A stretch of DNA of 64,000 bases from Squalus acanthias (lineage: Eukaryota), in NCBI GenBank assembly GCA_030390025.1, contig CM059426.1:110112001-110176000 (forward strand). The letters run 5' to 3'. A program made the translations under genes and the position numbers. Below are positions 2,728 through 62,544 of the stretch, piece after piece; the first letter of the stretch is position 1; each line of letters opens with the position of its first letter. The notes beneath the pieces were generated by a model. That model saw nothing but the letters and a program-made list of their open reading frames with translations. It was not told the DNA's origin and ran no database searches.

Positions 2728-2829
2728 AAAGCAAAAGCAAAATACTGCGGATGCTGGAAATCTGAACTAAAAACAGAAAATGCTGGAAATACGCAGCAGG
2801 TCAGGCAGCATCTGTGGAGTGAGAAACAG

Positions 2830-2866
2830 AGTTAACGTTTCAGGTCGATGACCCTTCATCAGAACT
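2830..2866 (-). ncRNA. Minimal type I hammerhead ribozyme (PLE family A)
   Basis: Minus strand: AGTT-CTGATGA-A-GGGTC-ATC-GACCT-GAAA-CGT-T-AACT. Stem I AGTT/AACT, stem II, palindromic AACGTT in place of stem III. Confidence 0.8.
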
Positions 2867-3160
2867 GGAAAAAGCTGGAGATCGAACAGGTTTTTAAGCA
2901 AGTGCAGGGGCAGGGAAAGAGGGGAGGGGAGGAAAGAACAATCTCTCCTGCCTTCCATCTAGAGCCATCTTTTGTTTCTTAACTTGTCCCATTACCATCT
3001 CCTTTTGTCTTGCACCATCTCTTAATCTCTCCTGCCTTCCATCCTATCACAGACCTCCCCTTTGTTCTTTCCTCCCCTCCCCCCTTTCCCTGCCCCTGCA
3101 CTTGCTTAAAAACCTGTTGGAGAGCAAGATCAACCCTCCCCTTTAAGAACTGGCCAGCAC

Positions 3161-5062
3161 CATTGTGTCAATTTCTCTGCTCCCCTCACTCACTCCAACC
3201 TACCTCCCTCTGAACTTGCAGCACTCCATTCTCTCCGATCCAACCCTGACATTGTCATTAAACCTGCTGACAAGGGTGGCGCTGTTGTTGTTTGGCGAAC
3301 CGACCTCTACCTAGCGGAAGTTGAACGCCAACTCTCTGACACCTCCTCCTACCTCCACCTGGACCATGACCCCACTACCGAACATCAAGCCACCGTGTCC
3401 AAGACTGTCACTGACCTCATCTCCTCTGGAGATCTTCCCCCCACGGCCGCCAACCTCATAGTTCCCCAACCCCGCACAGCCCGCTTCTACCTCCTTCCCA
3501 AGATCCACAAACAGGACTGCCCCGGTAGACCCATCGTTTCAGCCTGTTCTTGCCCCACGGAACTTATCTCTTCCTATCTCGACTCTATTTTTTCTCCCCT
3601 TGTCCAGTCTCTTCCCACCGACATCCGCGACTCTTCCGATGCCCTCCGCCATTTTAACAGTTTCCAGTTTCCCGGCCACAACCGTCTCCTCTTCACTATG
3701 GACGTACAATCCCTCTACACCTCCATTCCCCACCAGGATGGCCTGAGGGCGCTCCGCTTCTTCCTTGAACAGAGGCCCAACCAGTCCCCATCCACCACCA
3801 CCCTCCTCCGCCTGGCTGAACTTGTTCTCACATTGAACAACTTCTCCTTTGACTCTACCCATTTCCTCCAAATTAAAGGTGTTGCTATGGGTACCCGCAT
3901 GGGTCCTAGCTATGCCTGCCTTTTCGTGGGATATGTGGAACACTCTTTGTTCCAGTCCTACTCGGGTCCCCTCCCTCACCTCTTTTTCCGGCACATTGAT
4001 GACTGTATCGGTGCCGTCTCCTGCTCTCGCCCTGAACTAGAACATTTCATTCACTATGCTTCCAATTTCCACCCTTCCCTCACCTTCACATGGTCCATCT
4101 CCGACTCTTCCCTTCCCTTCCTCGACTTCTCCATCTCCATCTCTGGGGATAGGTTATTGACTAACATTCACTACAAGCCCACCGACTCCCACAGCTACCT
4201 GGACTACACTTCCTCCCACCCCGCCTCCTGTAAGGACTCTATTCCATTCTCCCAGTTTCTCCGTCTCCGCCGCATCTGCTCTGATGATGCCACCTTCCAT
4301 ACCAGTGCTTCCGACATGTCTTCCTTTTTCCTCAACCGAGGATTCCCCTCTACCGTGGTCGACACGGCCCTCGACCGTGTCCGTTCTATCTCCCGCACAT
4401 CTGCCCTCACCCCTGCCCCTCCCTCCCGGAACCACGATAGGGTTCCCCTTGTCCTCACCTTTCACCCCACCAGCCTCCACATTCAACGGATCATCCTCTG
4501 CCATTTCCGCCACCTCCAGCGTGATCCCACCACCAAACACATCTTCCCCTCACCTCCCCTTTCAGCATTCCGTAGGGACCGCTCCCTCCGCGACACCCTA
4601 GTCCACTCCTCTACCACCCCCAGCACCCCTTCCCCTTCGCCCGGCACCTTCCCGTGCATGCGCAGGAGATGCAACACATGCCCTTATACCTCCCCTCTTC
4701 CCACTGTCCAGGGCCCCAAACACCCCTTCCAGGTGAAACAGCGATTTACTTGTACTTCCTGCAATTTAGTATACTGTATTCGCTGCTCACGATGTGGACT
4801 CCTCTACATTGGGGAGACCAAACGCAGATTGGGTGACCGCTTTGCGGAACACCTCCGTTCAGTCCGTAAGGGGGACCCCGAGCTCCCGGTGGCCTGTCAC
4901 TTTAATTCACCGCTTCACTCCCACTCTGACCTCACCGTCCTCGGCCTATTACACTGTTCCACGGAAGCTCAGCGTAAGCTCGAGGAACAGCACCTCATCT
5001 TTCGTTTAGGCACGCTACAGCCCTCTGGACTCAATATCGAGTTCAACAATTTTAGATCATAA
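3161..5062 (+). CDS. PLE polyprotein: reverse transcriptase + GIY-YIG endonuclease (open frame, no start codon, catalytic motif reads HIDD)
   Basis: The frame of ORF 3395-5062 stays open upstream and includes the PLE motif IKPADKGG; also PKIHK, GRPIVS, MDVQSLYT, QIKGVAMG, FRHIDD, Cys pairs and NLVYCI...LYIGETKRRLGDRFAEH (GIY-YIG). Confidence 0.9.
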   Translation, partial: HCVNFSAPLTHSNLPPSELAALHSLRSNPDIVIKPADKGGAVVVWRTDLYLAEVERQLSDTSSYLHLDHDPTTEHQATVSKTVTDLISSGDLPPTAANLIVPQPRTARFYLLPKIHKQDCPGRPIVSACSCPTELISSYLDSIFSPLVQSLPTDIRDSSDALRHFNSFQFPGHNRLLFTMDVQSLYTSIPHQDGLRALRFFLEQRPNQSPSTTTLLRLAELVLTLNNFSFDSTHFLQIKGVAMGTRMGPSYACLFVGYVEHSLFQSYSGPLPHLFFRHIDDCIGAVSCSRPELEHFIHYASNFHPSLTFTWSISDSSLPFLDFSISISGDRLLTNIHYKPTDSHSYLDYTSSHPASCKDSIPFSQFLRLRRICSDDATFHTSASDMSSFFLNRGFPSTVVDTALDRVRSISRTSALTPAPPSRNHDRVPLVLTFHPTSLHIQRIILCHFRHLQRDPTTKHIFPSPPLSAFRRDRSLRDTLVHSSTTPSTPSPSPGTFPCMRRRCNTCPYTSPLPTVQGPKHPFQVKQRFTCTSCNLVYCIRCSRCGLLYIGETKRRLGDRFAEHLRSVRKGDPELPVACHFNSPLHSHSDLTVLGLLHCSTEAQRKLEEQHLIFRLGTLQPSGLNIEFNNFRS

Positions 5063-5344
5063 CCTCAGCCCCAATCACATTTATATTTTATTTTATCCAC
5101 CCTTTTATTTGTCCCCCCCCCCCACCTTTTTTTTTCCCTCCTAGAAGCTGGCAGCTGTCCTTCATTCTGCCAGTGGATTTCACACTTCATTCAGCCTTAA
5201 TCTGTCACATTAACACCACCTCTAGCCTTGCATATCTCTTAATGTCTCTTAATGTCTCTTCATCTCCCCCTTTGTTCCTTTATCCCCTCCCCCTTTTCCC
5301 AGCTTTACCCTGGCCTTAAATCTATTTGATTTCCGGCTCTTCCC

Positions 5345-5381
5345 AGTTCTGATGAAAGGTCATCGACCTGAAACGTTAACT
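5345..5381 (+). ncRNA. Minimal type I hammerhead ribozyme (PLE family A)
   Basis: AGTT-CTGATGA-A-AGGTC-ATC-GACCT-GAAA-CGT-T-AACT; perfect stem II; lies in the 3' pLTR downstream of the ORF. Confidence 0.85.
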
Positions 5382-5529
5382 CTCTTTCTCTCTCCACGGA
5401 TGCTGCCTGGCCTGCTGAGTTTTTCCAGCGTTTTCTGTTGTTATTTCGGATTTCCAGCATCCGCAGTATTTTGCTATCGTACCATTGTGTCTGTGTTCCA
5501 TTACTGACTGACATCACATGAGCTTCGCC

Positions 5530-7111: not shown

Positions 7112-7656
7112 GGCCGGAATTTTCATGTTGCAGAGTGTACGGGTTTGGGAGCGGGTCGGTGAAAAAGTGCTGAAACTGACAGCACGTCGGGAACCCGCTG
7201 TCACCCCGCCAACTTCCGCATTTAACTGGGGCGCGATTCAAAGCATGCCACAGACCTACTCGGGAGAGGCGGGCGACCTCATGGAGGTAGTTAACTGCTC
7301 GGTTAGAGACCCTTAACAGCCTTTTTAATAGAGGTTTCAAATTTAGCTGGTTGTGCACAGGATTCACAGACCTCGGGAAGCTCGCCTGTGAAGGGGAGGC
7401 GGAAGCTCAGTGGCCATTGTGTGAGTTCATTAAGTGACAGCTGGAAAAAGCACATAAATACACACACCTCACACCTGCTTCCTTGCCTAATGGAAAGGCT
7501 CTTGCTGACACCATTTTGCGATGAGATTTTGCTTTCAGGAGTTTCCAGGTGATTTCTGCAACCTTGGAAGCCACTCTCACCACAGTTCTAATCACTATCA
7601 CTACATTGGAGGATTATGCCTCTGATTGCCAATTACCTGCCATCTATCAGATCAGC

Positions 7657-8842
7657 ATGGGTGTCGCTTATGCTGTCTCATCTTGGACCTCTGATTCGGA
7701 CAAAGATGAGCCCCAGCACCAACAACACCAGCCAAATCAGCAGCAACCACACCAGCAGCCTTCTCCTCACAAACCTGATGCTCCACAGGAGAGAGAGGAT
7801 CAGCACAGGGGTGCACCACGCTGGAGGCGATACCCCCAACACAGGGTATACAGGCAGAGGATGAACTTCCTGGACATGACTGAACAGCAGTGCTTCTGGA
7901 GGCTCAGGCTATCGCGCCAGATCATCGCAGACATGGGTAGCTTGCTGGAAGAAGACCTGCTGCCCAGAGGACCTGGTGGACACGCCTTACCAGTGGCTGT
8001 CAAAGTCACCACCACCCTCAACTTCTTTGCCTCAGGCTCCTTCCAAGGATCTGCAGCAGATATTTGCAGGATCTTGCAGTCGACCGCCCACAAATGCATC
8101 ACCCAGGTGACCGATGTCATGTTTCACAAGTCAGCCACTTATGTACACTTTGCCACTGATGAAGCCAGTGTTACTGAGCGGGTGCTCAGCTTTGCAGCTC
8201 TGGCTGGCTTCCCACAGGTGCAGGGCATCATCGACTGCACACATGTGGCCATCAAGGCACCCCCAGATCACCCAGGAGTGTTTGTGAACCGCAAGAGCTT
8301 CCACTCCCTCAATGTGCAGCTCATCTACAACCATAAAAAGATTATCATGCATGTGTGCGCCAGATTCCCTGGCAGCTGTCATGCGCCAGCCGACCCTCCC
8401 TCAGCTCTTCACACCTTCAAACAGATTTACCATCTGGCTGCTTGGAGACAAGGGCTGTCCACTGAAGAAATGGCTGATGACACCCTTGAGGAGGCCAAGC
8501 AATGAGCCCGAGGAGTGATATAATGAAAGCTAAATATCCACCAGATGTGTCATCGAGCAAGCAATCGGCATGCTGAAGATGCACTTCAGATGCCTTGACC
8601 GATCTGGAGGAGGCCTTCAATACGCACCAGCCAGGGTCTCCAGAATCATCGTCGTTTGCTGCGCGTTGCACAACACAGCACAGCAACAAGGATTGGAGCT
8701 GCAGGAGGAGCAAGGCGCAGAGCACACAGCCTCTTTGGAGGAGGAGGAACCGGTGGAACACGAGGAAGAGGAGGAACCTGAGGTGGAAATGGCACCAGCA
8801 GCGGTGCACATTGCTGCCCCGGATGGCCTCATAATGGCCTGA
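7657..8842 (+). pseudogene. Harbinger DDE transposase (HARBI1-like), frameshifted with stops
   Basis: [39 protein letters not shown] (then deletion/frameshift), WLLGDKG.P...WLMTP, IEQAIGMLK..FRCLD, CCALHN. Confidence 0.9.
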
Positions 8843-9144: not shown

Positions 9145-10972
9145 CTACGATTGTGTCTTTTTTCTTTTCCATGTGCTTCTACGAGGTGCAACCCTTGTGG
9201 CTTCAGCAGAGGTAGAGGCAGGATGCTCAATTCCCTGCTGTGACTGCTTTGACACTTTTGGCGGATGTCCTCTGGGTTTTGGAGCCTGTGAGGGCCCCGC
9301 CAAAGACTGCTCCTCCTGCAACTGTGCAGGGGCAGACTTGGCCATCAGGATCCAAGGAAGCCTGTAGGGCTCTGACTGAGGGGGAGGCAATGGGGGAGAA
9401 GTGGGAACACTTTGAGCAGAGCCCCCACTTCCATGTCTCCTTTCACCATCATCCCTCTCATGGGCCACCCGCACTTCCCTGCTAGCATGGAGCTGGAGAG
9501 CACCTTGCTGCACGTCAGTGGGGTGATGAACACCCTAGTCTATGTTGGTATCCCTCCTAGAGATGAGGTGAATGAGAGTCTGAAATCTGTTGTTCACAGC
9601 AAGCATGTTCTCATTCGACTGGCGCATTAGCTGCTCTATGCAGGTGGCCATCCTTTCCATGGAACAGCACATTGTTGCCATCGCCTGCGATATGGTGGTG
9701 CTCATGTTGGAGATGGACTCCTCCATTCTCTGGACAATCACACAGATCTGGGCTGGAAAAGCTGCCAGAGCTTCGTGCATTTGTTGCTGCTCTTCCAAAT
9801 TCAACTTCTTTGTCAACGGCCCCCGAGGTTCAGCATCTGCAGAGCTTGGAGCGTCCTGCGCCCTCCGGCGAGGACTTTCCACTGCTGTCCCTGTCTCCAT
9901 CATCTGCTCTTGCTCACTTGTGATATGTGAGACGCCAGGTGACAACACTACTCTATGTCTCACTGGACCCACCGAGGTGTGTGTATCTTCGCTGGTGCTG
10001 GGTGCGCATGGGTCTGGTGATGGTGGACCTTCAGAGAGTGGAGCATCCTCTGAGGAGTCGTCTTCCTCCTCCAGCTGGACAGGGGTGGGGACCCTCGATG
10101 GGCCCGTGGGAGAGTAAAGACTTGAATTAGACCTATCATGATGAGAATGTGTAATGTTACCATTATGCACATGATATTTCACTGGCTGCTGACATCAGTC
10201 ACCATGCGTGACTGTTGTATGCCATGTTGGATATTTAATTCTGTCACCAGGTTGCTGGGAGGTCCCACTCTCTCTGTCTCCCATCGCCATCAGCTCAGTC
10301 ACTCCTTATTTTGAGAGCTTCTTCCTCTGCAGGCGTCAAATATTGGAGGGCCACCTATGGTTCTCTCTCTTTCTCTCCTGTTCTGTGCTCTCTTCTCCTG
10401 CAAGGAGGGATAGAAGAGAACTTTGACTGAGGGAATGAGTGTAAGGGATGTATGGGCTACATCTGTAGAGAGTAACTATGAGCGAGTGGCCTGACATTGC
10501 CGAGTGGCCTCCTTTTGTGGTGTTACTTTGTAGGATTGCATTAGGATGAGGGTGAGTGTCAGTGGTGGATAGTCAGATAGGGATGTGAGTAGGTGCATAG
10601 ACAGTGAGGGATGGGTGCACCTGCAAGGTAGGTTGATTTGAGGAGTGACGTGCAGGAGTGGGCTTGGGAAGGCAGAGTGATGGGTTTGGGGTGACACGCA
10701 CAACTGGACGTAGTTGAATTTGGCATTGTACTCCCCTTTCCTGACCTCATGAGATCATTAAATCCCTTCCGGCATTGAATCCAGGAGCAGTTGACAACAT
10801 CCCTGCTGCTAACTTCTAGTGTGATCTCCAGCCATGCCCTCTTGGTTTCTCTGGCTGCTCTATTCCTGCCGCTGCCAGGGTCTAGTACCTCCCTGCGTGC
10901 TCTGACTCCCTGGACCAGGACTTCCAGGGAGGCATCTGAGAAACTGGGCACATTCTGTTGCTGTGACTCCAT
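9145..10972 (-). pseudogene. Harbinger Myb/SANT-like DNA-binding partner, spliced, decayed
   Basis: Exon 1 10972-10736 (FSDASLEVLV...AWLEI...WIQCRKGFNDL); exon 2 ~10397-10249 after a cttgcag acceptor (EKRAQNRRERERT.GGPP); low-complexity exon 3 from ~10103. Donor 1 reads GGGAGT and acceptor 3 reads ACGG (mutated). Confidence 0.82.
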
Positions 10973-11260
10973 ATTTGCTTGCACCCACACAAATCTCTGA
11001 TATAGACCCAGAGCCACCTCTCCCAACCACCTTTATGCCTCCTCCAACAACCTTCAACTGGGATGTGTGCAAGGCTCCTTTAAATATCTGAGCTGTAAAG
11101 GAGTCATTGGTGACATCATCAGACCCGCTCCATTTAATTGGCCGGGAAATCCGCATGACTGTTTCAATTGAGTTAAACGTGCAGCTCAAAACGTGCTTTT
11201 GAAAACCTTGGGATGGCAGCCCGCCACACCCGCCCCGATTCCAAGGTAAAGATTCTGGCC

Positions 11261-17778: not shown

Positions 17779-18572
17779 GGCCGGAATTTTCCCATCAAAA
17801 AACGGGTGGGTTTGGAGCGTGGGGGGCAGTTAAATTGTTAAAAATGTGAATCCCGACCTGATCCCGCCTCCAACCCGCCCACTTCCGGTTATGCTAAAGG
17901 AGCACGGTGGGGGGAGCGGGCGACCAACCCACTCCCAGGGGGCGTTGCCTCAATTTAAATATTGTAATGAGGCTGGAAGCCCTCTATTCTCCCCTCTACT
18001 TTTGTTTTTAACTGCCTGTGGATGGGTTTCACACAATTAGTGAAACCCGGAAGTTAAACCGAGGCAGCGACTGCTGCATCCAGGAGGTAAGTGGCTTTAT
18101 ATCTACCTCCTGGATCCAGGGTCCCCACCTAACCCAGCCTCCGCGATCGGAGACCCCCTCACGAGGCCTCCGATTGCCGCCCCAGACCTCCTCCCCCCCG
18201 ATGTGGATGATGAGGCTGGCCACGATCCCCCCCCCCCCCGTCGTCCCGCCATGCGATCCCCAATTCCACCCCCCCACCCCCCCGCGATCCCTGCTTGCCT
18301 GCCAATCCCCGACCACCCCCCATTGCCTGGCAATTCCTGATCCCCTGCTGAGCCTGCAACCCGCCGCCGATCCTCTCTCCCCCCGCCAATTGCCCCCCCC
18401 TCCCCCCCCCCCCCAACCTATTGCAACTGAGGCCTACCCGCCCGCAGCCAGCCAGCCTCTCAAGCTGGCTGGCTGCGGGTGGGAAACCGAGGCCTCACAT
18501 TCAAATTAGGCCCTGCCGGTAAAGTCGGCAGGGACTGTGGAAAACCCGGCCTCCTCGAAGAAAATTCCGGCC
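17779..18572. mobile_element. Harbinger MITE with perfect 13-bp TIR
   Basis: GGCCGGAATTTTC ... GAAAATTCCGGCC, identical to the left TIR of the Harbinger at 7112; TSD not clean. Confidence 0.8.
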
Positions 18573-18861
18573 CCTGTAATGGCATCAACTTGTGGTACTT
18601 ACCCACTATTTCTGCTCTAAAAATGGCTGAAACAGTTAGGGCTGGTGCATTCAGGAGTAAGTCAGTTTTTAATGGCATAATAAGAGATAATTACGTTTCT
18701 GGCCCTGAAAAATTAATTTTACAAGTGTGGAGTCTCATTCCCTCAGAAGACTGTTTGTCTCTTTTATCTCTCTCCCATGATCCCATCTGTATTTCCCAAT
18801 TTTTATTTTGCTTTCTCTACATGGTTTAAGTCTAATTTATACTTCCTGGTTTGGACTCTCT

Positions 18862-19560
18862 GAGTTGGATTTTAAGCAGGAGGGTGGGTTGGGGACAGCA
18901 GTGCTCCAAGGAGGTTGGCAAACCTGGAAGGCTGGGTTTCCCGCAATCCCTGACGACTCTAATGGCAGGGCCTGATTTGCATGCGAGGCCTCGGTTTCCC
19001 ATCCACAGCTAGCCAGATTGAGAGGCTGACTGACTGCAGTTGGGTAGGCCTGCGGCACTAGGCTGCACAGAGGAAGGAGGGCGGAAGGGTTTGTGTGGGG
19101 GCTGGGCCGTTGAAAGGATTGGGGTGGGGGAAGAGAGGTTCGGGGCCGGATGATTGGGGTGGGTGAAGGGAAGATCGTGGCCAGCCACTGAAGGATCGGG
19201 GCTGGCCACTGGAGGATTGGTGGGTGGGAGAGAAGATCGTGGCCGGTCTCAGCATCATCAGTGGGGGGGAGTGGCCTGGCGGGGTGATCGGAGGCCTCGT
19301 GAGCCAGTGTCCGATCGTGGGGGGTGGGTTAAGTAGGAACCCTGGATTCAGGAGGTAGGTATAAAGGCACTTACTTCCTAGATCCAGCCGTCACCGTCTT
19401 GCTGTGACTTCCGGGTTTTACGAATTCTGTAAAACCTGTTCACACGCAGTTAAAAACAAAATGGTGGTTAAAAAAGAGGCTTCTAGCCTCAATATAATAT
19501 TTAAATTGACGTCCTGCCTCCGTTAAAACCCACCAGTTTTTTTAGGTTAAAATTCCCCCC
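18862..19560. mobile_element. Harbinger MITE related to 17779-18572, opposite orientation
   Basis: TIRs gagttggattttaa / ttaaaattcccccc; TSD TCT (18859-18861, 19561-19563); internal blocks are reverse complements of those in 17779-18572. Confidence 0.72.
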
Positions 19561-33236: not shown

Positions 33237-33361
33237 ATGATGTGGAGATGCCGGTGTTGGACTGGGGTGGACAAATGTGAGAAGTCGCACAACACCAGGT
33301 TATAGTCCAACAGCTTTATTTGAAATCACAAGCTTTCGGAGCGCTGCTCCTTCGTCAGGTG
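33237..33361 (-). mobile_element. Solo PLE pseudo-LTR/tail (family B), ~125 bp
   Basis: TSD aagatatttccc (33225-33236, 33362-33373); homologous to the tail of the PLE fragment at 38660-38751. Confidence 0.85.
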
Positions 33362-33362
33362 A
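33326..33362 (-). ncRNA. Minimal hammerhead ribozyme (PLE family B)
   Basis: TCAC-CTGACGA-A-GGAGC-AGC-GCTCC-GAAA-GCT-T-GTGA; perfect stems I and II; palindromic AAGCTT. Confidence 0.85.
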
Positions 33363-33470
33363 AGATATTTCCCGCTACCCTTTCACACATGCCTTGATGA
33401 GGAGACGGCCACCCCTATCCTGAAGTAAGGGTCCTAAGAGAACGACATGTGTGGTTGAGGCACGGCCTCC

Positions 33471-35988: not shown

Positions 35989-36648
35989 CTGTTGGGTCCA
36001 CAAGTGCTCTAATGGAGTTGCCCATCACTTCCATCCTGGAAATCATGAACTCCAAGCTCCGCGCAAAGCCCCTTGCAATGTTGGAGCCGGACTCCTCCAT
36101 GCTCCTTGACAATGATGAGAGGCTCTCTGGCAGGCTTGTCATTGCACCAAGCATTGCATGTCCATCACCCTTCTTCTGAAGGTTGCCCCATCGAGGTCAT
36201 CATCTGAGTCCAGTGCAGCACAACCCGTGTGCAAACTCACCCTCCAGGGAGCTGGCACCAGAGCTATACTTTCCCCCTGGCCTGGCTGCACCCCACTCGT
36301 ACCCGGTGACTCACCGCATGCAGATCCCGCCTCTATACTATCCTCTAAAATCTGCACAGTGCCATTCTCTGAGCTGGTGCCTGGGAGTGTCACATCGAGC
36401 GAAGGTGCCTCTTCTTCTCCTTCACTCTCCTCCTCTACAACTTCGGGGACAGGCTGGGCTGGTGGAACTTCTAGGGTATCTGAAAGGAGAAAGGCACAAG
36501 GGTCAGGTTGTGGTGAGGATAGTGGAGGAAAGCAAGATGTGCATGCTTACACCATCAGCAGCTTGTAATTGAGAAGAGATTGTGGGATGAGGGGGTAGTG
36601 GGATGTGAGAAGAAGGATTAAGTATGAGGATACCATCACCATCAGCAA
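35989..36648 (-). pseudogene. Remnant of a second Harbinger Myb-partner gene (3' exons); exon 2 continues at ~39335-39475
   Basis: LSSLSRSMEESGSNI parallels VQRMEESISNM at ~9720; cttgcag acceptor then ANGAHNRWEQQ at ~39470 parallels exon 2 of 9145-10972. Confidence 0.55.
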
Positions 36649-37873
36649 TGCTTTGTGTCTGTCTTCACGGAAGAAGACGCAAAAAACTTCCCGGAAATAG
36701 TGGAGAACCAAGGGTCTAGCGAGAATGAGGAACTAAAAGATATTAGTATTAGTAAAAAAGGAGTACTGGAGAAATTAATGGGATTGAAAGCTGATAAATC
36801 CCCTGGACCTGATGGCCTACATCCTAGGGTTTTGAAAGAGGTGGCTGTAGAGATAGTGGATGCATTGGTTGTCATTTTCAAAAATTCCATAGATTCTAGA
36901 ACGGTTCCCGCGGATTGGAAGGTAGCAAATGTAACCCCACTATTTAAGAAAGGAGGGAGAGAGAAAACGGGGAACTGCAGACCAGTTAGCCTGACATCAG
37001 TAGTAGGGAAAATGCTAGAATCTATTATTAAGGACGTGGTAACAGGGCACTTAGAAAATAATAATAGGATTGGACAGAGTCAACACCGATTTATGAAAGG
37101 GAAATCGTGTTTGACAAAACTGTTAGAGTTTTTTGAGGTTGTAACTAGCCGAATAGATAAGGGGGAACCAGTGGATGTGGTGTATTTGGATTTTCAGAAT
37201 GCATTCGATAAGAGGCTATTAAACAAAATTAGGGCTCATGGGATTGGGGTAATATACTAGCATGGATTGAGGATTGGTTAACGGACAGAAAACAGAGAGT
37301 AGGAATAAACGGGTCTTTTTCGAGTTGGCAGGCTGTAACTAGTGGGGTCCCACAAGGATCAGTGCTTGGGTCTCAGCTATTCACAATCTACATCGATGAT
37401 TTGGATGAGGGGACCAAATGTAATATATCCAATTTTGCTGTTGATACAAAGCTGGGTGGGAATGTAAGTTGTGAGGAGGATGCAAGGAGGCTTCAAGGGG
37501 ATATAGACAGGCTAAGTGAGTGGGCAAGAACATGGCAAATGGAATATAATGTGGAGAAATGTGAAGTTATCCACTTTGGTAGGAAAAATAGAAAAGCAGA
37601 GTATTTTTTAAATGGTGAGAGATTGGGAAATGTTGGTGTTCAGATGGACCTGAGTGTCCTTGTACAAGAATCACTGAAAGTTAACATGCAGGTACAGCAA
37701 ACAGTTAGGAAAGCAAATGGTATGTTGGCCTTTATTACAAGAGGATTTGAGTGTAAGAGTAAAGACGTCTTACTGCAATTATATATGATGCGGAGATGCC
37801 GGCGTTGGACTGGGGTGGAAAAAAATGAGAAGTCGCACAACACCAGGTTATAGTCCAACAGATTTATTTAAAA

Positions 37874-37911
37874 TTACAAGCTTTCGGAGCTGTCGCCCCT
37901 TCGTCAGGCAA
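37874..37911 (-). ncRNA. Minimal hammerhead ribozyme, left arm
   Basis: TTGC-CTGACGA-A-GGGGC-GACA-GCTCC-GAAA-GCT-T-GTAA on the minus strand. Confidence 0.8.
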
Positions 37912-38661
37912 AGTTACTGTGAGAGAATCTATCAGAATTCACAGAATATAAAAACCCAGAGAAAATGCATAGATTAAATCTTTCCCTACATCAAAGACAC
38001 ACTAAGAGCACAGCCAAGACAATGAGATGTGTCCCAGGGGGTCCAACGCGTCAGAACACCTGCTGGCTGCATATCCTCTCCATTTTTTGTGTTTGTTTCT
38101 TGTGTTTGTTTTTTTTTATAAACTGGAAAGACCGGCAACGATGTCAAGTCACGTTCTATAGCGTGACATGAACCCGATATCCCGATTGAGGCCGTCCTCA
38201 TGAGTGCGGAACTTGGCTATCAGTTTCTGCTCGATGATTTTGCGTTGTCGTGTATCACGAAGGCCGCCTTGGAGAACGCTAACCCGCGGGTTAGCGTTCT
38301 CCAAGGCGGCCTTCGTGATACACGACAACGCAAAATCATCGAGCAGAAACTGATAGCCAAGTTCCGCACTCATGAGGACGGCCTCAATCGGGATATCGGG
38401 TTCATGTCACGCTATAGAACGTGACTTGACATCGTTGCCGGTCTTTCCAGTTTATAAAAAAAAAAAAACACAAGAAACAAACACAAAAAATGGAGAGGAT
38501 ATGCAGCCAGCAGGTGTTCTGACGCGTTGGACCCCCTGGGACACATCTCATTGTCTTGGCTGTGCTCTTAGTGTGTCTTTGATGTAGGGAAAGATTTAAT
38601 CTATGCATTTTCTCTGGGTTTTTATATTCTGTGAATTCTGATAGATTCTCTCACAGTAACT

Positions 38662-38699
38662 TTGCCTGACGAAGGGGCGACAGCTCCGAAAGCTTGTAA
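38662..38699 (+). ncRNA. Minimal hammerhead ribozyme, right arm
   Basis: Mirror copy: ttgcCTGACGAaggggcgacagctccGAAAgcttgtaa. Confidence 0.8.
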
Positions 38700-39599
38700 T
38701 TTTAAATAAATCTGTTGGACTATAACCTGGTGTTGTGCGACTTCTCATTTTTGCAATTATATAGGGCCCTGGTGAGACCACACCTGGAGAATTGTGTACA
38801 GTTTTGGTCTCCTTACCTAAGGAAGGATATACTTGCCATAGAGGGAGTGCAACGAAGGTTCACCAGACTGGTTCCTGGGATGGGGGGATTGTCCTATGAG
38901 GAGAGATTGAGTAGACTAGGCCTGTATTCTCTAGAGTTTAGAAGAATGAGAGGTGATCTCATTGAAACATACAAAATTCTTACAGGGCTTGACAGGGTAG
39001 ATGCTGGGAGGATGTTTCCCCTGGCTGGGGAGTCACAGTCTCCGAATAAGGGGTTGGCCATTAGGACTGAGATGAGGAGAAATTTCTTCACTCAGAGGGT
39101 GGTGAATCTTTGTAATTCTCTACCCCAGAGGGCGGTGGAGGCTCAGTCATTGAGTATATTCAAGACAGAGATCGATAGATTTTTGAATATTCAGGAAATC
39201 AAGTGAAATGTAGATAGTTCAGGAAAGTGGAGATGATGGAGAAGATCAGCCACGATTTTATTGAATGGTGGAGCAGGCTCGAAGGGCCAAATGGCCTACT
39301 CCTGCTTCTATTTCTTATGTTCTTACGTTCTTAATGTTTGCAAATTTGCTGCTCACCGTGGACTCAGTGATGCCCCTCCAATTATCTCCAGAACTGTGTC
39401 TTCCAGCTCTGTGCGGTTGTGAAGTCGGGCTTCCTCTGCTGTTGCTCCCAGCGGTTATGAGCCCCGTTGGCCTGCAAGAGAAAGTGACTTGTGTCAGTGA
39501 GTGAGGTGCAATGTGTTTGGGTGATGTACCTGCCATGGTTGAATAGCTGGCAGTGTGTGCAAGGTATGAGATATGGATGTGAGTCTTCAAGCAGTGGTA

Positions 39600-41022
39600 A
39601 GTGCCAAAATTTGGAGAGCTGTCCCACAGACTAATCAAGCAACAGCCTGACATAGTCATACTCTTAGAATCATACCTTTCAGCCAATGTCCCAAACGCCT
39701 CCATCACCATCCCTAGATATGTCCTGTCCCACAGGCAGGACAGACCCACCAGAGATGGCAGCAGAGTGGTGTACAGTCAGAAAGGAGTGGCCCTAGGAGT
39801 ACTCAACATTGACTCCGGACCCTTTGAAGTCTCATGGCTTCAGGCCAAGCATGGGCAAGGAAACCTCCTGCTGGTTACCACCTACCGCCCTCCCTCAGCT
39901 GATGAATCAGTACTCCTCCATGTTGAACACCACTTGGAAGAAGCACTGAGGGTAGCAAGGGCACAGAATGTACTCTGGATGGGGAACTTCAATGTCCATC
40001 ACCAAGAGTGGCTCGGTGGCACCAATACTGACCGAGCTGACTGAATCCTGAAGAATATGTCTGCCAGACTGGGCCTGCGGCAGGTGGTGAGAGAACCAAC
40101 ACGAGGGAAAACTTACTTGACCTCGTCCTCACCAATCTATCTGTCGCAGATGCATCTGTCCATGACAGCATTGGTAGCAATGACCACCGCACAGTCCTTG
40201 TGGAGACGAAGTCCTGTCTTCACACTGAGGACACCCTCCATCGTATTGTGTGGCACCACCACCGTGCTAAATGAGATAGATTCAGAACAGATCTAGCAGC
40301 TCAAAACTGGGCACCCATGAGGCACTGTAGGCCATCAGCAGCAGCAGAATTGTATTCCACCACAATCTGTAACCTCATGGCCCGGCATATCCCTCATTCT
40401 ACCATTACCATCAAGCCAGGGGACCAACCCTGGTTTAATGAGGAGTGCAGAAGAACATGCCAGGAGCAGCACCAGGCGTACCTAAAAATGAGGTGCCAAC
40501 CTGGGGAAGCAGCAACACAGAACTACATGCATACTAAACAGCGGAAACAGCATGCTAGAGACAGGGCTAAGTGATCCCACAATCAACGGATCAGATCAAA
40601 GCTCTGCAGTCCTGCCACATCCAGTTGTGAATGGTGGTGGACAATTAAGCAACTAACAGGAGGAGGAGCCTCCATAAATATCCCCATCCTCAATGATGTC
40701 GGAGCTCAGCACGTGAGTGCAAAAGACAAAGCTGAAACGTTTGCAACCATCTTAAGCCAGAAGTGCAGAGTGGATGATTCATATCGGCCTCCTCGTGAGG
40801 TCCCCACCATCACAGAAGCCAGACTTCGGCCAATTCAATTAACTCTACGTGATATCAAGAAGCGGCTGACGCACTGGATACAGCAAAGGCTATGGACCCC
40901 GACAGCATTCCGGCTGTCGTGCTGAAGACTTGTGCTCCAGAACTAGCCGCACCTCTAGCCAAGCTGTTCCATATATAGCTACAACACTGGCCTCCACCCG
41001 ACAATGTGGAAAACTGCCCAGT
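39600..41022 (+). mobile_element. Second CR1-like LINE family: AP-endonuclease to early RT
   Basis: PDIVILLESYL, RQDRP, TTYRPPS, MGNFNVHH, SNDH-type motif, PWFNEECR. Confidence 0.82.
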
Positions 41023-41049
41023 TCTAGCCTTATGATGGAGGGAAAGTCA

Positions 41050-41890
41050 TTAATGAAACAGCTGAAGATGGTTGGGCCTAGAACACTGCCCTGAGGAACT
41101 CCTGCAACGATGTCCTGGGGCTAAGATGATTGACCTCCAACAGCCACAACCACAACCATCTTCCTTTGTGCCAGGTATGACTCCAGCCAGCCAGCTGTCC
41201 CACTGATTCCCATTGACTTCAATTTTACTAGGTCTGCTTGATACCACACTCGGTCAAATGCTGCCTTGATTTCAAGGGCAGTCACTCTCACCTCACCTCT
41301 GGAATTCAGCTCTTTTGTCCATGTTTGGAGCAAGGCTGTAATAAGGTTTGGAGCTGAGTGGTCTTGGCGGAACCCAAACTGAGCATCGGTGAGCAGGTTA
41401 TTGGTGAGTAAGTGCCACTTGACAGCACTGCCAACGACCCCTTCCATCACTTTGCTGATGATTGAGAGTAGACTGTGGGGCAGTAATTGGCCAGATTGGA
41501 ATTATCCTGCTTTTTGTGGACAGAGATACCTGGGCAGTTTTCCACATTGTCGGATAGATGCCAGTGTTGTAGCTGTTACTAGAACAGCTTGGCTAGAGGC
41601 GCAGCTAGTTCTGGAGCACAAGTCTTCAGCATGACAGACGGAATATTGTCGGGGCCCATAGCCTGTGCTGTATCCAGTGTGCTCAGCTGTTTCTTGATAT
41701 TACGTGGAGTGAATTGATTTGGCTGTGACTGGCTTCTGTGATGGTGGGGACCTCAGAAGGAGGCCGAAATGGATCATCCACTCGGCCCTTCTGGCTGAAG
41801 ATCGTTGCAAATGCTTCAGCCTTGTCTTTTGCACTCGTGTGCTGGGCTCCACCATCATTGAAGATGGGGATGTTCATGGAGCCTCCTCAA
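41050..41890 (-). mobile_element. Second CR1-like family, RT fragment in opposite orientation
   Basis: DAQFGFRQDHS, ALEIKAAFDRVW, gttcctcagggcagtgttctaggccc (VPQGSVLG). Confidence 0.82.
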
Positions 41891-50369: not shown

Positions 50370-52041
50370 TCAGCAGAGGGCATGGCTGAGGTACTAAATG
50401 AGTACTTTGCATCTTTCTTCACTAGAGAAGAGGATGCTGCCAAAGTAGCAGTAAAGGAGGAAATGTTGGATAGGATAAAAATAGATAAAGAGGAAGTACT
50501 TAAAAGGTTGGCTGTACTCAGTAAATTCAAAAAGTCACCCGGTCGGATGGGGTGCATCCTAGATTACCTAGATTATGTGTGGAAATTGCAGAGACTCTGG
50601 AGGATAGCATATGTTACACCCCTGTTCAAAAAAGGGGAGAAGGATAAACCCGGCAACTATAGGCCAGTTAGCCTAATGTACGTGGTGGGAAAACTTTTAG
50701 AGATAATAATCTGGGCAAAATTAATTGCCACTTAGTAGTATGGGCTAATTAATGAAAGTCAGCACGGATTTGTTAAAAGCAAATCGTATTTGACTAACTT
50801 GAGTTCTTTAATGAAGTAATGGAGAGGGTTGATGAGAGTAGTACAGTTGATGTGTATATGGACTTTCAAAAGGCATTTGACAAAGTACCCCATAATAGAC
50901 TTGTAAACAAAATTAAATGGGATTAAAGGGACAGTGGCAGCGTGGATACAAAATTGGCTAAGGGACAGAAAGCAGAGAGTAGTGGTGAACGGTTATTTTT
51001 CACACTGGAGGGAAGTATACAGTGCTGTTCCCCAGGGGTCGGTATAAGGACCACTGCTCTTTTTGATATACAGTATATTAATGATCTGAACTTGGGTGTA
51101 CAGGACATAATTTCAAAGTTTGCAGATGACATGGAACTCAGAAATGTAGTAACAAATGAGGAGGATAGTAACAGACTTGTGAAATGGGCAGACACATGGC
51201 AGATGAATTTAATATGCGGAGATGCCGGTGTTGGACTGGAGTGGACAAAATTGAGAGGTCGCACAACACCAGGTTATAGTCCAACAGTTTTATTTGAAAT
51301 CACAAGCTTTCGGAGCTTACTACTCCTTCGTCGGGTGAAGTAAAAAGATACAGAATCGCCAAAGCATATATAGATAGAGAACAATGCATGTGTACCTTAC
51401 AATTGCAGACAACTAAATTAAATCATCCTGACTATCTGCCGAGGTGTGATAAAGTTAATCAGGTCAGCCAGGAAGATGAATTTAATGCAGAGAAGTGTGA
51501 AGTTTGATACATTTTGGTAGGAAAAATGAGGAGAGGCAATATAAACTAAATATTAAACCTTTACTAAGCTTTGGTTAGGCCTCAGCTGGAGTATTGTGTC
51601 TAATTTTGGACAGCACATTTTAGGAAGGATTTCAAGGCCTTAGAGTGGGTGCAGAAGAGATTTACTGGAATGGTACCAGGGATGAGGGATTTCAGTGATG
51701 TGGAGAGACTGAAGAACCTGGTTCTCATTAGAGCAGAGAAGGTTAAGAGGAGATTTGATAGAGGTGTTCAAAATCATGAACAGTTTTGATAGAGTAAATA
51801 AGTGGCAGAAGGCTAGGTAATCAGAGGACACAGATTTGAGGTGATGGGCAAAAGAACTAGAGGTGACATGAGCTTCAATAATAACTTTCAAAAAGGAATT
51901 GGATAAATACTTGAAGTGAAACAAATTAAAGGGCTATGGGGAAAGGGCAGGGGAGGTGGGACTAATTAGATAGCCCAAAGAGCTGGAACAGGCACAATGG
52001 GCTGAATGGCCTCCTTCTGTGCTGTATGATTCTATGATTCT
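50370..52041 (+). mobile_element. Degraded CR1 LINE
   Basis: NYRPVSL, KFADD; tail tatgattctatgattcta; interrupted at 51214-51473. Confidence 0.88.
51214..51473 (-). mobile_element. PLE family B tail insertion (260 bp) with mutated HHR (51300-51338, core CCGACGA)
   Basis: TSD agatgaatttaat (51201-51213, 51474-51486); first ~125 bp homologous to 33237-33361. Confidence 0.85.
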
Positions 52042-52520: not shown

Positions 52521-52643
52521 AATAGCAAAATACTGCGGATGCTGGAAATCTGAAATAACAACAGAAAATGCTGAAAATGCTCAGCAGGCCAGGCAGCATC
52601 TGTGGAGAGAGAAACAGAGTTAACGTTTCCGGTCTGTTATTTC
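52521..52643 (-). mobile_element. PLE family A tail mini-insertion (3' half of the HHR only)
   Basis: Homologous to 2736-2846; TSD agcta(t/c)ctaacag (52508-52520, 52644-52656); ends with short inverted piece tgttatttcag. Confidence 0.78.
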
Positions 52644-61792: not shown

Positions 61793-61980
61793 AATACAAA
61801 AGCAAAATACTGCAGATGCTGGAAATCTGAAATAAAAACAGAAAATGCTGGAAACACTCAGCAGGTCAGGCAGCATCTGTGGAGAGAGAAACAGAGTTAA
61901 TGTTTCAGTACGATGACCCTTCATCAGAATAGTTCCTGAGTACTGAGTATTTCCAGCACTTTCTGTTTTTATTTCAGATT
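61793..61980 (-). mobile_element. PLE family A mini element with inverted ends and degenerate HHR (61895-61930)
   Basis: Homologous to 2736-2866; last ~38 bp are the reverse complement of ~61823-61860. Confidence 0.8.
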
Positions 61981-62544
61981 TTTGTTTGGGTGCGTGGTCC
62001 CTTTAAATGGGCTGCGCGGGACTTCCAGACAGCTGCGCGGCCACGCAGCTTAGCGAGCACAGGGGTGGTGGGTGAATGGGACTAGCTGCGTGTTTGGATA
62101 CGTGCAACAGAGTTTTGGATGAACTCAAGTTCATTGAGGGTGGAAGATGGGAGGCTGGCAAGGAGAACATTGGAATAGTCGAGTCCGGCAAATAACTCAT
62201 AAATGTAATGTATTGTATGTTGTAGAACCAAGACAGAATACACTCTCAGTTTTTAAAATTAATTTATTTATTGCCCATCCCTAGTTACCCTTGAGAGGAT
62301 GGTAGTGAGCTGCCTTCTTGAACTGCTGTGGCCTGGGGCGGGGGGGGGGGGGGGGGGGGGAGGAGAGGGAGAATGTGTTGCATGTGTAAAGGGGGTGGGG
62401 GTGGAAGATTGTGATCCAGGCCTAACAGAGGGCAGGAGAACATGATCTATCTTCCCATCTGGAACCCGTTCTTGCTCTCATTCCCCCCCCCCCTCCCCCT
62501 TTAGACCTGGATCATGTTCTTCCCCCCTCCCCACTGTTCTCACT

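What the first reader, a model, noticed from the sequence alone, without database searches (positions are those of the whole stretch)
37786..38763. Spacer-less ~932-bp palindrome built from a Penelope 3' end, with a hammerhead ribozyme in each arm
Seen: 466-bp arms meet with zero spacer at aacccg|cgggtt and differ at one visible position (in an A-run). Each arm holds the last ~45 codons of a PLE ORF, the 3' UTR and an intact minimal HHR. The unit is flanked by a 12-bp TSD (tgcaattatata), and the host CR1 frame resumes exactly. Known: PLEs often form tail-to-tail inverted insertions and carry minimal HHRs; long perfect palindromes are cruciform-prone and unstable. Inference: a very recent insertion in which the nascent cDNA snapped back on itself to prime second-strand synthesis. 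This would be a clean snapshot of PLE integration and a potential source of hairpin dsRNA/small RNAs against the family, or a fragile site.
Basis: partly seen in the sequence, partly recalled or inferred. Interest (0 to 1): 0.8.

Follow-up and report, generated by a model that had tools for sequence, protein, structure and literature searches.

The report
Mirror-image Penelope retrotransposon insertion in shark
Two copies of the tail end of a Penelope jumping gene were inserted back to back into an older shark retrotransposon, making a 932-base perfect mirror sequence; this back-to-back layout is already known for these elements, and only its exact symmetry is unusual.

Summary
The palindrome is real in the sequence: arms 37821-38286 and 38287-38752, 465 of 466 bases complementary, no spacer, 12-bp target-site duplication (TSD), and the host CR1 frame resumes. 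Each arm is the last 45 codons, 3' UTR and minimal hammerhead of a shark Neptune-type Penelope-like element (PLE).

Corrections: the arms meet head-to-head (5'-truncated ends at the centre), not tail-to-tail. The left arm also carries a 35-bp PLE 'tail' (37786-37820) that the right arm lacks. Inverted copy + one-sided tail + TSD is the published PLE insertion form, and two more head-to-head units lie in this window.

Simple snap-back priming is not supported: relatives' peptides imply no self-complementary sequence at the fold point. Best model (about 0.5): both target nicks primed reverse transcription at two start sites 35 nt apart, both cDNAs ran off the same RNA 5' end, and they were joined end to end. 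'Very recent' is only relative: up to millions of generations at the shark mutation rate. Hairpin RNA and fragility are untested. Known kind, unusually clean case; interest 0.3.

The parts
37774..37785 (+). Left copy of the 12-bp target-site duplication (AT-rich, contains ATT); its last A may also belong to the element's 3' end
37786..37820 (-). 35-bp PLE 'tail' (69% A+C), present on the left arm only; distal 3' end of the family
   Evidence: (same end in copies 33238-33367 and 51214-51341)
37821..38286 (-). Left arm: 5'-truncated PLE (ORF C-terminus, 3' UTR, hammerhead) reading leftwards from the centre
37874..37911 (-). Minimal hammerhead of the left arm; predicted cut after 37878
38149..38286 (-). 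Last 45 codons and stop of the PLE ORF (GIY-YIG endonuclease C-terminus), left arm
38281..38292 (.). Zero-spacer head-to-head junction between 38286 and 38287; both arms start at the first base of the codon equal to R600 of P0002; GC-rich centre (0.8 over 10 bp, 0.44 over the whole palindrome)
38287..38424 (+). Last 45 codons and stop of the PLE ORF, right arm; 93% identical to P0002 residues 600-642
38287..38752 (+). Right arm: same 5' start, ends 35 nt short of the family's distal end (no tail); T38752 shared with the TSD
38662..38699 (+). Minimal hammerhead of the right arm; predicted cut after 38695, 57 nt before the arm end
38752..38763 (+). Right copy of the target-site duplication
36628..39330 (+). 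Host CR1-like LINE fossil (RVT_1; frame break near 37233-37260), 79-90% identical to its closer siblings in the window, interrupted by the insert; boundaries approximate, the label CR1 is from my own knowledge

Best explanation
A genuine head-to-head insertion of a shark Neptune-type Penelope-like element (identity about 0.95 sure), most likely made by priming from both target nicks. Steps: (1) the PLE endonuclease nicks both strands of an AT-rich site 12 bp apart [TSD shown; nicking inferred]. (2) The top-strand 3' end primes reverse transcription at the distal start site and gives the arm with the tail; the bottom-strand 3' end primes at a site 35 nt further in and gives the tail-less arm [asymmetry shown; assignment to two start sites inferred from the Anolis PLE]. 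(3) Both cDNAs copy hammerhead-uncleaved RNA and stop at the same nucleotide, most simply the broken 5' end of one RNA copied twice with strand displacement [identical ends shown; cause inferred]. (4) The two cDNA 3' ends are joined without homology, either by an end-to-end template jump (one added C pairing with the other cDNA's terminal G gives exactly the observed centre) or by blunt end-joining [inferred]. (5) Fill-in leaves a zero-spacer palindrome between TSDs. The hammerheads are passengers: they lie on opposite strands, and in a read-through RNA all 38 of 38 hammerhead bases pair with the other arm.
For: Structure. Family: 16 of 21 candidates passed, named ones from Heptranchias, Mustelus and Scyliorhinus; P0002 has RVT_1, a CX4CX2C linker and a CCHH-type GIY-YIG. 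The other two family copies have TSDs of 12 and 13 bp. No homology at the fold point: 44 of 59 relatives cover the residue before it, all L/I/M/V and none P; 5 of 5 antisense-frame peptides that run past it read K-I; only CTT and GAT fit both readings. PMC11167929: a PLE protein cleaves and extends both strands, is predicted to be a dimer, starts RT at two adjacent internal sites that delimit the tail, prefers ATT, and uses hammerhead-uncleaved RNA. PMC8594491: R2 RT jumps end to end onto DNA or RNA 3' ends through a +1 overhang, +1C selects 3'-G, and jumps only at the 5' end of the engaged template. Helix pairing and read-through fold.
Against: No reads, second allele or genome were available. 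The two-start-site and both-strand data come from a Poseidon-clade PLE; template jumping was shown for R2, not for a PLE. The tail-less end is seen once in this family, so it is not shown to be a fixed site; the three other family ends in the window all carry the tail. The upstream codons come from different copies, and the source copy may have differed. Two relatives (P0020, P0048) have spacers of up to about 3 codons, the size of a hairpin loop, which fits snap-back as well. PMC3846280 prefers self-priming on an antisense template, and PMC8557442 attributes the tail to endonuclease resolution. L1 twin priming, the known two-nick model, gives adjacent non-overlapping segments rather than duplicated ones (PMC11702581).
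Confidence: 0.5

Rival explanations
1. Snap-back or U-turn self-priming (first reader; related to the self-priming idea of PMC3846280): one cDNA folded on itself, was extended back along itself, and was resolved near the tail, perhaps by the element's endonuclease.
For: It explains identical inner ends and near-identical arms in one step. P0020 and P0048 have loop-sized spacers. The Drosophila Penelope endonuclease needs the tail for recognition (as cited in PMC11167929).
Against: The family sequence past the fold point is not complementary to the arm. With a 4-nt loop, three correct untemplated bases are needed for even one closing pair (inference). A templated loop would survive as a spacer, and there is none.
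Confidence: 0.2
2. The insertion first had unequal arms and a spacer, like the other inverted units here, and the unpaired loop was later removed from a hairpin or cruciform, with the arms kept alike by conversion.
For: The other head-to-head PLE units in the window have spacers of about 120 and 80 bp. Long inverted repeats are nuclease targets (PMC8053094).
Against: It needs a deletion exact to the base on both sides with no microhomology. Perfect palindromes are the more breakage-prone state (PMC8053094). From my own knowledge, central rearrangements usually add asymmetry.
Confidence: 0.12
3. The insertion is real but the perfect centre or the arm identity is an artefact: a spacer lost in sequencing or assembly, or arms made alike by polishing.
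For: No reads could be inspected. Artificial palindromes in long reads are documented (10.1101/173872, search listing only).
Against: A fold-back read would mirror the flank as well. Here the flanks are unique and continue one CR1 frame, the TSD length matches the family, the tail is one-sided as in PLE biology, and the arms differ by a substitution. A wholly artefactual unit is very unlikely (under 0.03).
Confidence: 0.12
4. A palindromic source locus elsewhere was transcribed through and retrotransposed here as one unit.
For: PLE terminal repeats can move sequence lying between them (PMC3846280).
Against: The RNA would be a 466-bp duplex (926 of 932 nt paired), and its 5' end would have to fall exactly on the family's distal 3' end.
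Confidence: 0.05

Closest known systems
Head-to-head inverted EN+ PLE insertions (Pen2a_Av, Pen2_Av, Pen3a_Av of Adineta vaga, PMC3846280; general scheme in PMC8557442)
   Same: Inverted 5'-truncated copy abutting the 5' end, 30-40 bp tail on one side only (35 bp here), TSD (8-10 bp there, 12 bp here), palindromic junctions, hammerhead in the terminal repeat.
   Different: Here both copies are cut at the same nucleotide inside the ORF, so the whole insert except the tail is one 466-bp-arm palindrome. In the passages read, junction palindromes are 18-38 bp and the arms are unequal.
Anolis Poseidon PLE (PAc) in vitro, PMC11167929
   Same: Two 3' ends a tail-length apart, AC-rich tail, ATT in the target, hammerhead uncleaved in the copied RNA.
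   Different: Different clade (the shark family has the CX2-5CxxC linker of Neptune/Nematis). The parts read do not treat inverted insertions or how the 5' junction forms.
L1 twin priming (PMC11702581)
   Same: Both nicks prime cDNA, the TSD is kept, and the two cDNAs are joined in inverted orientation.
   Different: In L1 the second primer starts internally next to where the first cDNA ends, so segments do not overlap. Here both arms copy the same 466 nt.
Minimal hammerheads of metazoan PLEs (PMC4209133)
   Same: Core, bulged base before helix II, G10.1-C11.1 pair, palindromic 15.2-16.2, 4-bp helix I, no helix III; paired motifs on opposite strands 100-700 bp apart were already noted there.
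   Different: Helix II is 5 bp (7-8 bp in Schistosoma). Activity untested; those motifs need tandem dimers or protein help, which this locus cannot supply in cis.

Membership tests
EN+ Penelope-like element | Single ORF with RT and C-terminal GIY-YIG endonuclease | tested here: met
   Met through the closest full relative only: P0002 (93% over the 43 shared residues) has RVT_1, YIDD, DKG and VVY-C-C-YIG; P0006 hits Pfam GIY-YIG just under the cut-off. The insert itself holds only the last 45 codons, which hit no Pfam family.
EN+ Penelope-like element | [quoted passage not shown] | tested here: met
   35 bp on the left arm only
EN+ Penelope-like element | 5' truncation with tandem or inverted terminal copies, variable TSD, no poly(A) | tested here: met
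EN+ Penelope-like element | Hammerhead motif in the terminal repeat | tested here: met
   helix II kept across two families with different sequence
Neptune (or Nematis) clade | CX2-5CxxC linker between RT and EN | tested here: met
   P0002 residues 505-513; criterion from PMC8557442
Neptune clade | RT phylogeny with reference clades | not tested
Minimal hammerhead ribozyme | Self-cleavage activity | not testable with these tools
   Motif intact; Rfam gives no hammerhead match at gathering or E<=10
Non-LTR retrozyme | Head-to-tail tandem units each with a type I hammerhead, no coding sequence | tested here: not met
   Units are inverted and carry ORF sequence; definition from 10.64898/2026.07.22.740005
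L1-type twin-primed inversion | Inverted segments adjacent and non-overlapping on the template | tested here: not met
   Arms overlap completely
Snap-back (self-primed hairpin) product | Inverted microhomology and a retained loop at the fold point | tested here: not met
   Inferred from relatives' peptides, not from the source copy's DNA

The most novel reading that the evidence does not exclude
PLE head-to-head insertions arise when a PLE dimer primes from both target nicks at the two tail-defining start sites on one RNA, copies it twice to the same 5' end, and joins the cDNAs by a one-base template jump. Zero- and near-zero-spacer palindromes would then be a regular product in shark genomes, and sharks would tolerate hundreds-of-bp perfect, GC-centred palindromes for long times. 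This would link the 2024 in vitro results to the unexplained inverted structures and could be tested from assemblies alone.
Probability: 0.3. Interest if true: 0.6.

Novelty: new member of a known kind. Interest (0 to 1): 0.3.

Why it matters
How PLEs form their tandem and inverted ends is stated to be open (PMC8557442; PMC11167929 leaves the steps after first-strand synthesis unvalidated). This insertion has every junction readable against a known host sequence, so it constrains the models: two different 3' ends, one shared 5' end, no homology at the join. One locus cannot settle it, but it names the statistic that can: the distribution of inner-end offsets and of tail-less ends across a shark genome. 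If such palindromes are many and old, they also bear on how vertebrate germlines tolerate perfect palindromes. As a single locus it is an ordinary dead transposon fragment with no sign of function.

Tried and rejected
Rfam: 0 matches at gathering over the window; 7 weak miRNA/snoRNA matches below gathering at the locus, reflecting the hairpin, rejected. MFE folds of the hammerhead regions were no better than shuffles (z -0.69 to +0.60), so the motif call rests on the core and helix descriptor, not on folding energy. Search for family DNA in bacterial and archaeal genome contigs: 29 pattern matches, none confirmed; the extra scan was not used. No eukaryotic DNA collection was available and the viral and metagenome contigs were not searched, so the DNA of other family copies stayed unchecked. 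Antisense-region search among longer proteins: 0 of 5 candidates scored. Pfam on 74 of the 236 ORFs of 75 aa or more: 9 hit, all transposon domains; short exons would be missed, so a host intron is not excluded. A 2-bp GC overlap at the centre was considered and rejected, because it needs a G before the fold point and relatives imply T. No TSD of 7 bp or more was found for the 2736-5475 unit. Dating by arm identity was tried and is weak. P0022 (two sense stretches) and P0023 (12-stretch repeat protein) were fetched and not used. No supplementary files were read; those of PMC11167929 (Figs S1-S2) and of the bioRxiv preprint may bear on tail sites and inverted copies.

Full report
OBSERVATION. 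The repeat finder gives arms 37821-38286 and 38287-38752 with 0 nt between them. A base-by-base walk finds one mismatch in 466 (38108/38465, in an A-run); the next-best exact inverted repeat with a spacer under 30 nt in the window is 16 bp. The 12-mer TGCAATTATATA lies at 37774-37785 and 38752-38763. With the insert removed, the host LINE frame is open for about 240 codons and matches six uninterrupted sibling copies in the window.

WHAT IT IS. The 45-codon frame found 16 relatives among 21 candidates; the named ones are from sharks (Heptranchias, Mustelus, Scyliorhinus). The best full ORF, P0002, is 93% identical over 43 residues. It has RVT_1 and DKG, YIDD, a CX4CX2C linker and VVY-C-C-YIG. 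By the criteria in PMC8557442 (passages) this is a C-terminal-endonuclease PLE of Neptune/Nematis type; no tree was built. The arms read outwards, so the truncated 5' ends meet: head-to-head. The extra 35 bp continue the element's 3' end and recur in two more copies (33238-33367 and 51214-51341, 88-89% identical), which have TSDs of 12 and 13 bp. This is the PLE 'tail'.

Each arm has a minimal hammerhead. A core-plus-helix descriptor hits 5 times in the window, all in PLE ends, and never in 100 shuffles. Helix II is fully paired in 6 of 7 motif sites examined, across two families with different sequences. Rfam and folding energy do not detect the motif, as expected for one without helix III (PMC4209133, parts 1-2 of 4 read).

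HOW COMMON. PMC3846280 (passages and Discussion) describes inverted terminal copies with a one-sided 31-bp tail and 8-10 bp TSDs, palindromes at inverted junctions, and head-to-head as the most frequent arrangement. PMC8557442 and PMC8969392 (passages) give the same scheme. The window has two more head-to-head units of a second PLE family: arms 2882-2941/3062-3121 with a 120-bp spacer, and 61801-61929/61943-61981 with inner ends about 68 nt apart.

Among 59 related proteins, 5 join an antisense-frame piece to a sense piece, 5 are antisense only and 49 sense only. Only antisense matches to the three family copies in the window could be detected. Inner-end offsets are about 110 codons (P0008), about 500 nt (P0010), 1-4 codons plus about 15 unassigned residues (P0026), and at most about 3 codons (P0020, P0048); these are my readings. 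They come from unnamed contigs and may include library fold-backs. The three near-symmetric ones showed up through a query that itself spans the junction, so they show recurrence, not frequency.

MECHANISM. Snap-back needs the cDNA end to pair with itself around a loop; 4-6 bases stay unpaired even in perfect palindromes (PMC7999016 and PMC8053094, passages). Of the 59 relatives, 44 cover the residue before the fold point: L 28, I 8, M 6, V 2, never the P that the palindrome reads there. Five of five antisense peptides that pass the point read K-I, which with sense L and D fixes CTT and GAT. So the element's own sequence would not have paired with the arm, and nothing of it survives as a loop. 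The caveat is that the source copy itself was not seen.

The alternative uses PMC11167929 (parts 1-2 of 4 and passages): a lizard PLE protein nicks and extends both strands, starts at two adjacent internal sites that delimit the tail, prefers ATT, and copies hammerhead-uncleaved RNA. Here one arm ends with the tail and the other 35 nt inside, both run through the hammerhead cut site (57 and 92 nt from their ends), and the target contains ATT. Identical inner ends follow if both cDNAs ran off one RNA end. An end-to-end jump through one added C onto the other cDNA's 3'-G, as R2 RT does in vitro (PMC8594491, passages), yields the observed centre exactly; blunt end-joining would too. I put this at 0.5, snap-back 0.2, later loop loss 0.12, artefactual centre 0.12, copied palindromic source 0.05. 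It resembles L1 twin priming but fails its non-overlap feature (PMC11702581, passages).

AGE. The TSD is perfect, the arms keep 21 CpGs each (observed/expected 0.93 against 0.38 for the window and 0.25-0.38 for the host), and the host is 10-21% diverged from its closer siblings. The insert is therefore young relative to its host. At 7e-10 per base per generation (epaulette shark, PMC10587355, passages), 1/466 gives 1.5 million generations (95%: 0.04-8.5 million), or 0-5.7 million if the mismatch is an RT slip. Arm conversion or polishing would hide age. The arm difference (0.002) equals that species' nucleotide diversity, so a polymorphic insertion is plausible but not shown.

CONSEQUENCES. 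A read-through RNA would pair 926 of 932 nt and bury the hammerhead, 38 of 38 nt. It would be a strong dsRNA but needs an outside promoter: sense transcription from the arms points away from the centre (inference). Pfam found only transposon domains, in 9 of the 74 ORFs scanned out of 236. Perfect palindromes of this size are fragile in yeast (PMC8053094). The centre here is GC-rich, which from my own knowledge slows cruciform extrusion. None of this was tested.

NOVELTY. Searches listed no paper whose title, abstract start or read passages describe a fully symmetric zero-spacer PLE insert or a two-nick, one-RNA model. The library lacks most subscription papers, including the older PLE reviews cited by these papers, and no supplements were read. 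The preprint 10.64898/2026.07.22.740005 (part 1 of 5) concerns tandem retrozymes, which this is not. Verdict: a real, well-preserved member of a known insertion class, at the symmetric extreme, useful as a mechanistic constraint. Interest 0.3.

Noticed in passing
window 2736-5475: Second PLE family: 650-codon open frame 3110-5062 (34% to P0002; RVT_1 and GIY-YIG below cut-off; HIDD where P0002 has YIDD), with an inverted terminal copy at 2736-2941 and hammerheads at 2862(-) and 5349(+). The inverted copy is 97% like 3062-3121 but only 83% like the 3' UTR, so it is probably a composite of two subfamilies.
   Followed up: partly
window 61801-61985: Small decayed head-to-head unit of the second PLE family; the right piece stops about 22 nt short of the left piece's 3' end and the hammerhead helices are broken.
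   Followed up: partly
window 33237-33367 and 51214-51473: Solo 5'-truncated copies of the same family as the finding, both with tail and 12-13 bp TSDs. The second also sits in a CR1-like LINE, has a U-to-C change in the hammerhead core and a different upstream 3' UTR.
   Followed up: yes
window 52522-52634: Solo 3' end of the second PLE family, truncated inside the hammerhead.
   Followed up: no
window 37785-37790 and 33237-33242: The tail ends in CATCA(T); the antisense peptide of P0010 suggests an ATG or GTG begins there, so the distal end may fall on the next copy's start codon. Inference only.
   Followed up: no
window 7525-8505 and 10559-11032: DDE_Tnp_4 transposase and Myb/SANT frames facing each other: a Harbinger-type DNA transposon (label from my own knowledge).
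   Followed up: no
window 40663-41888 and 17950-19509: Other local inverted pairs: 360 bp at 87% with about 500 bp between them, and nested 278/123 bp at 80-84%.
   Followed up: no
P0001, P0014, P0015: Shark gene models (XRCC5 isoform X2, FAM204A isoform X2, FAM210B isoform X1) end in PLE endonuclease sequence, either exonisation or gene-model error.
   Followed up: no
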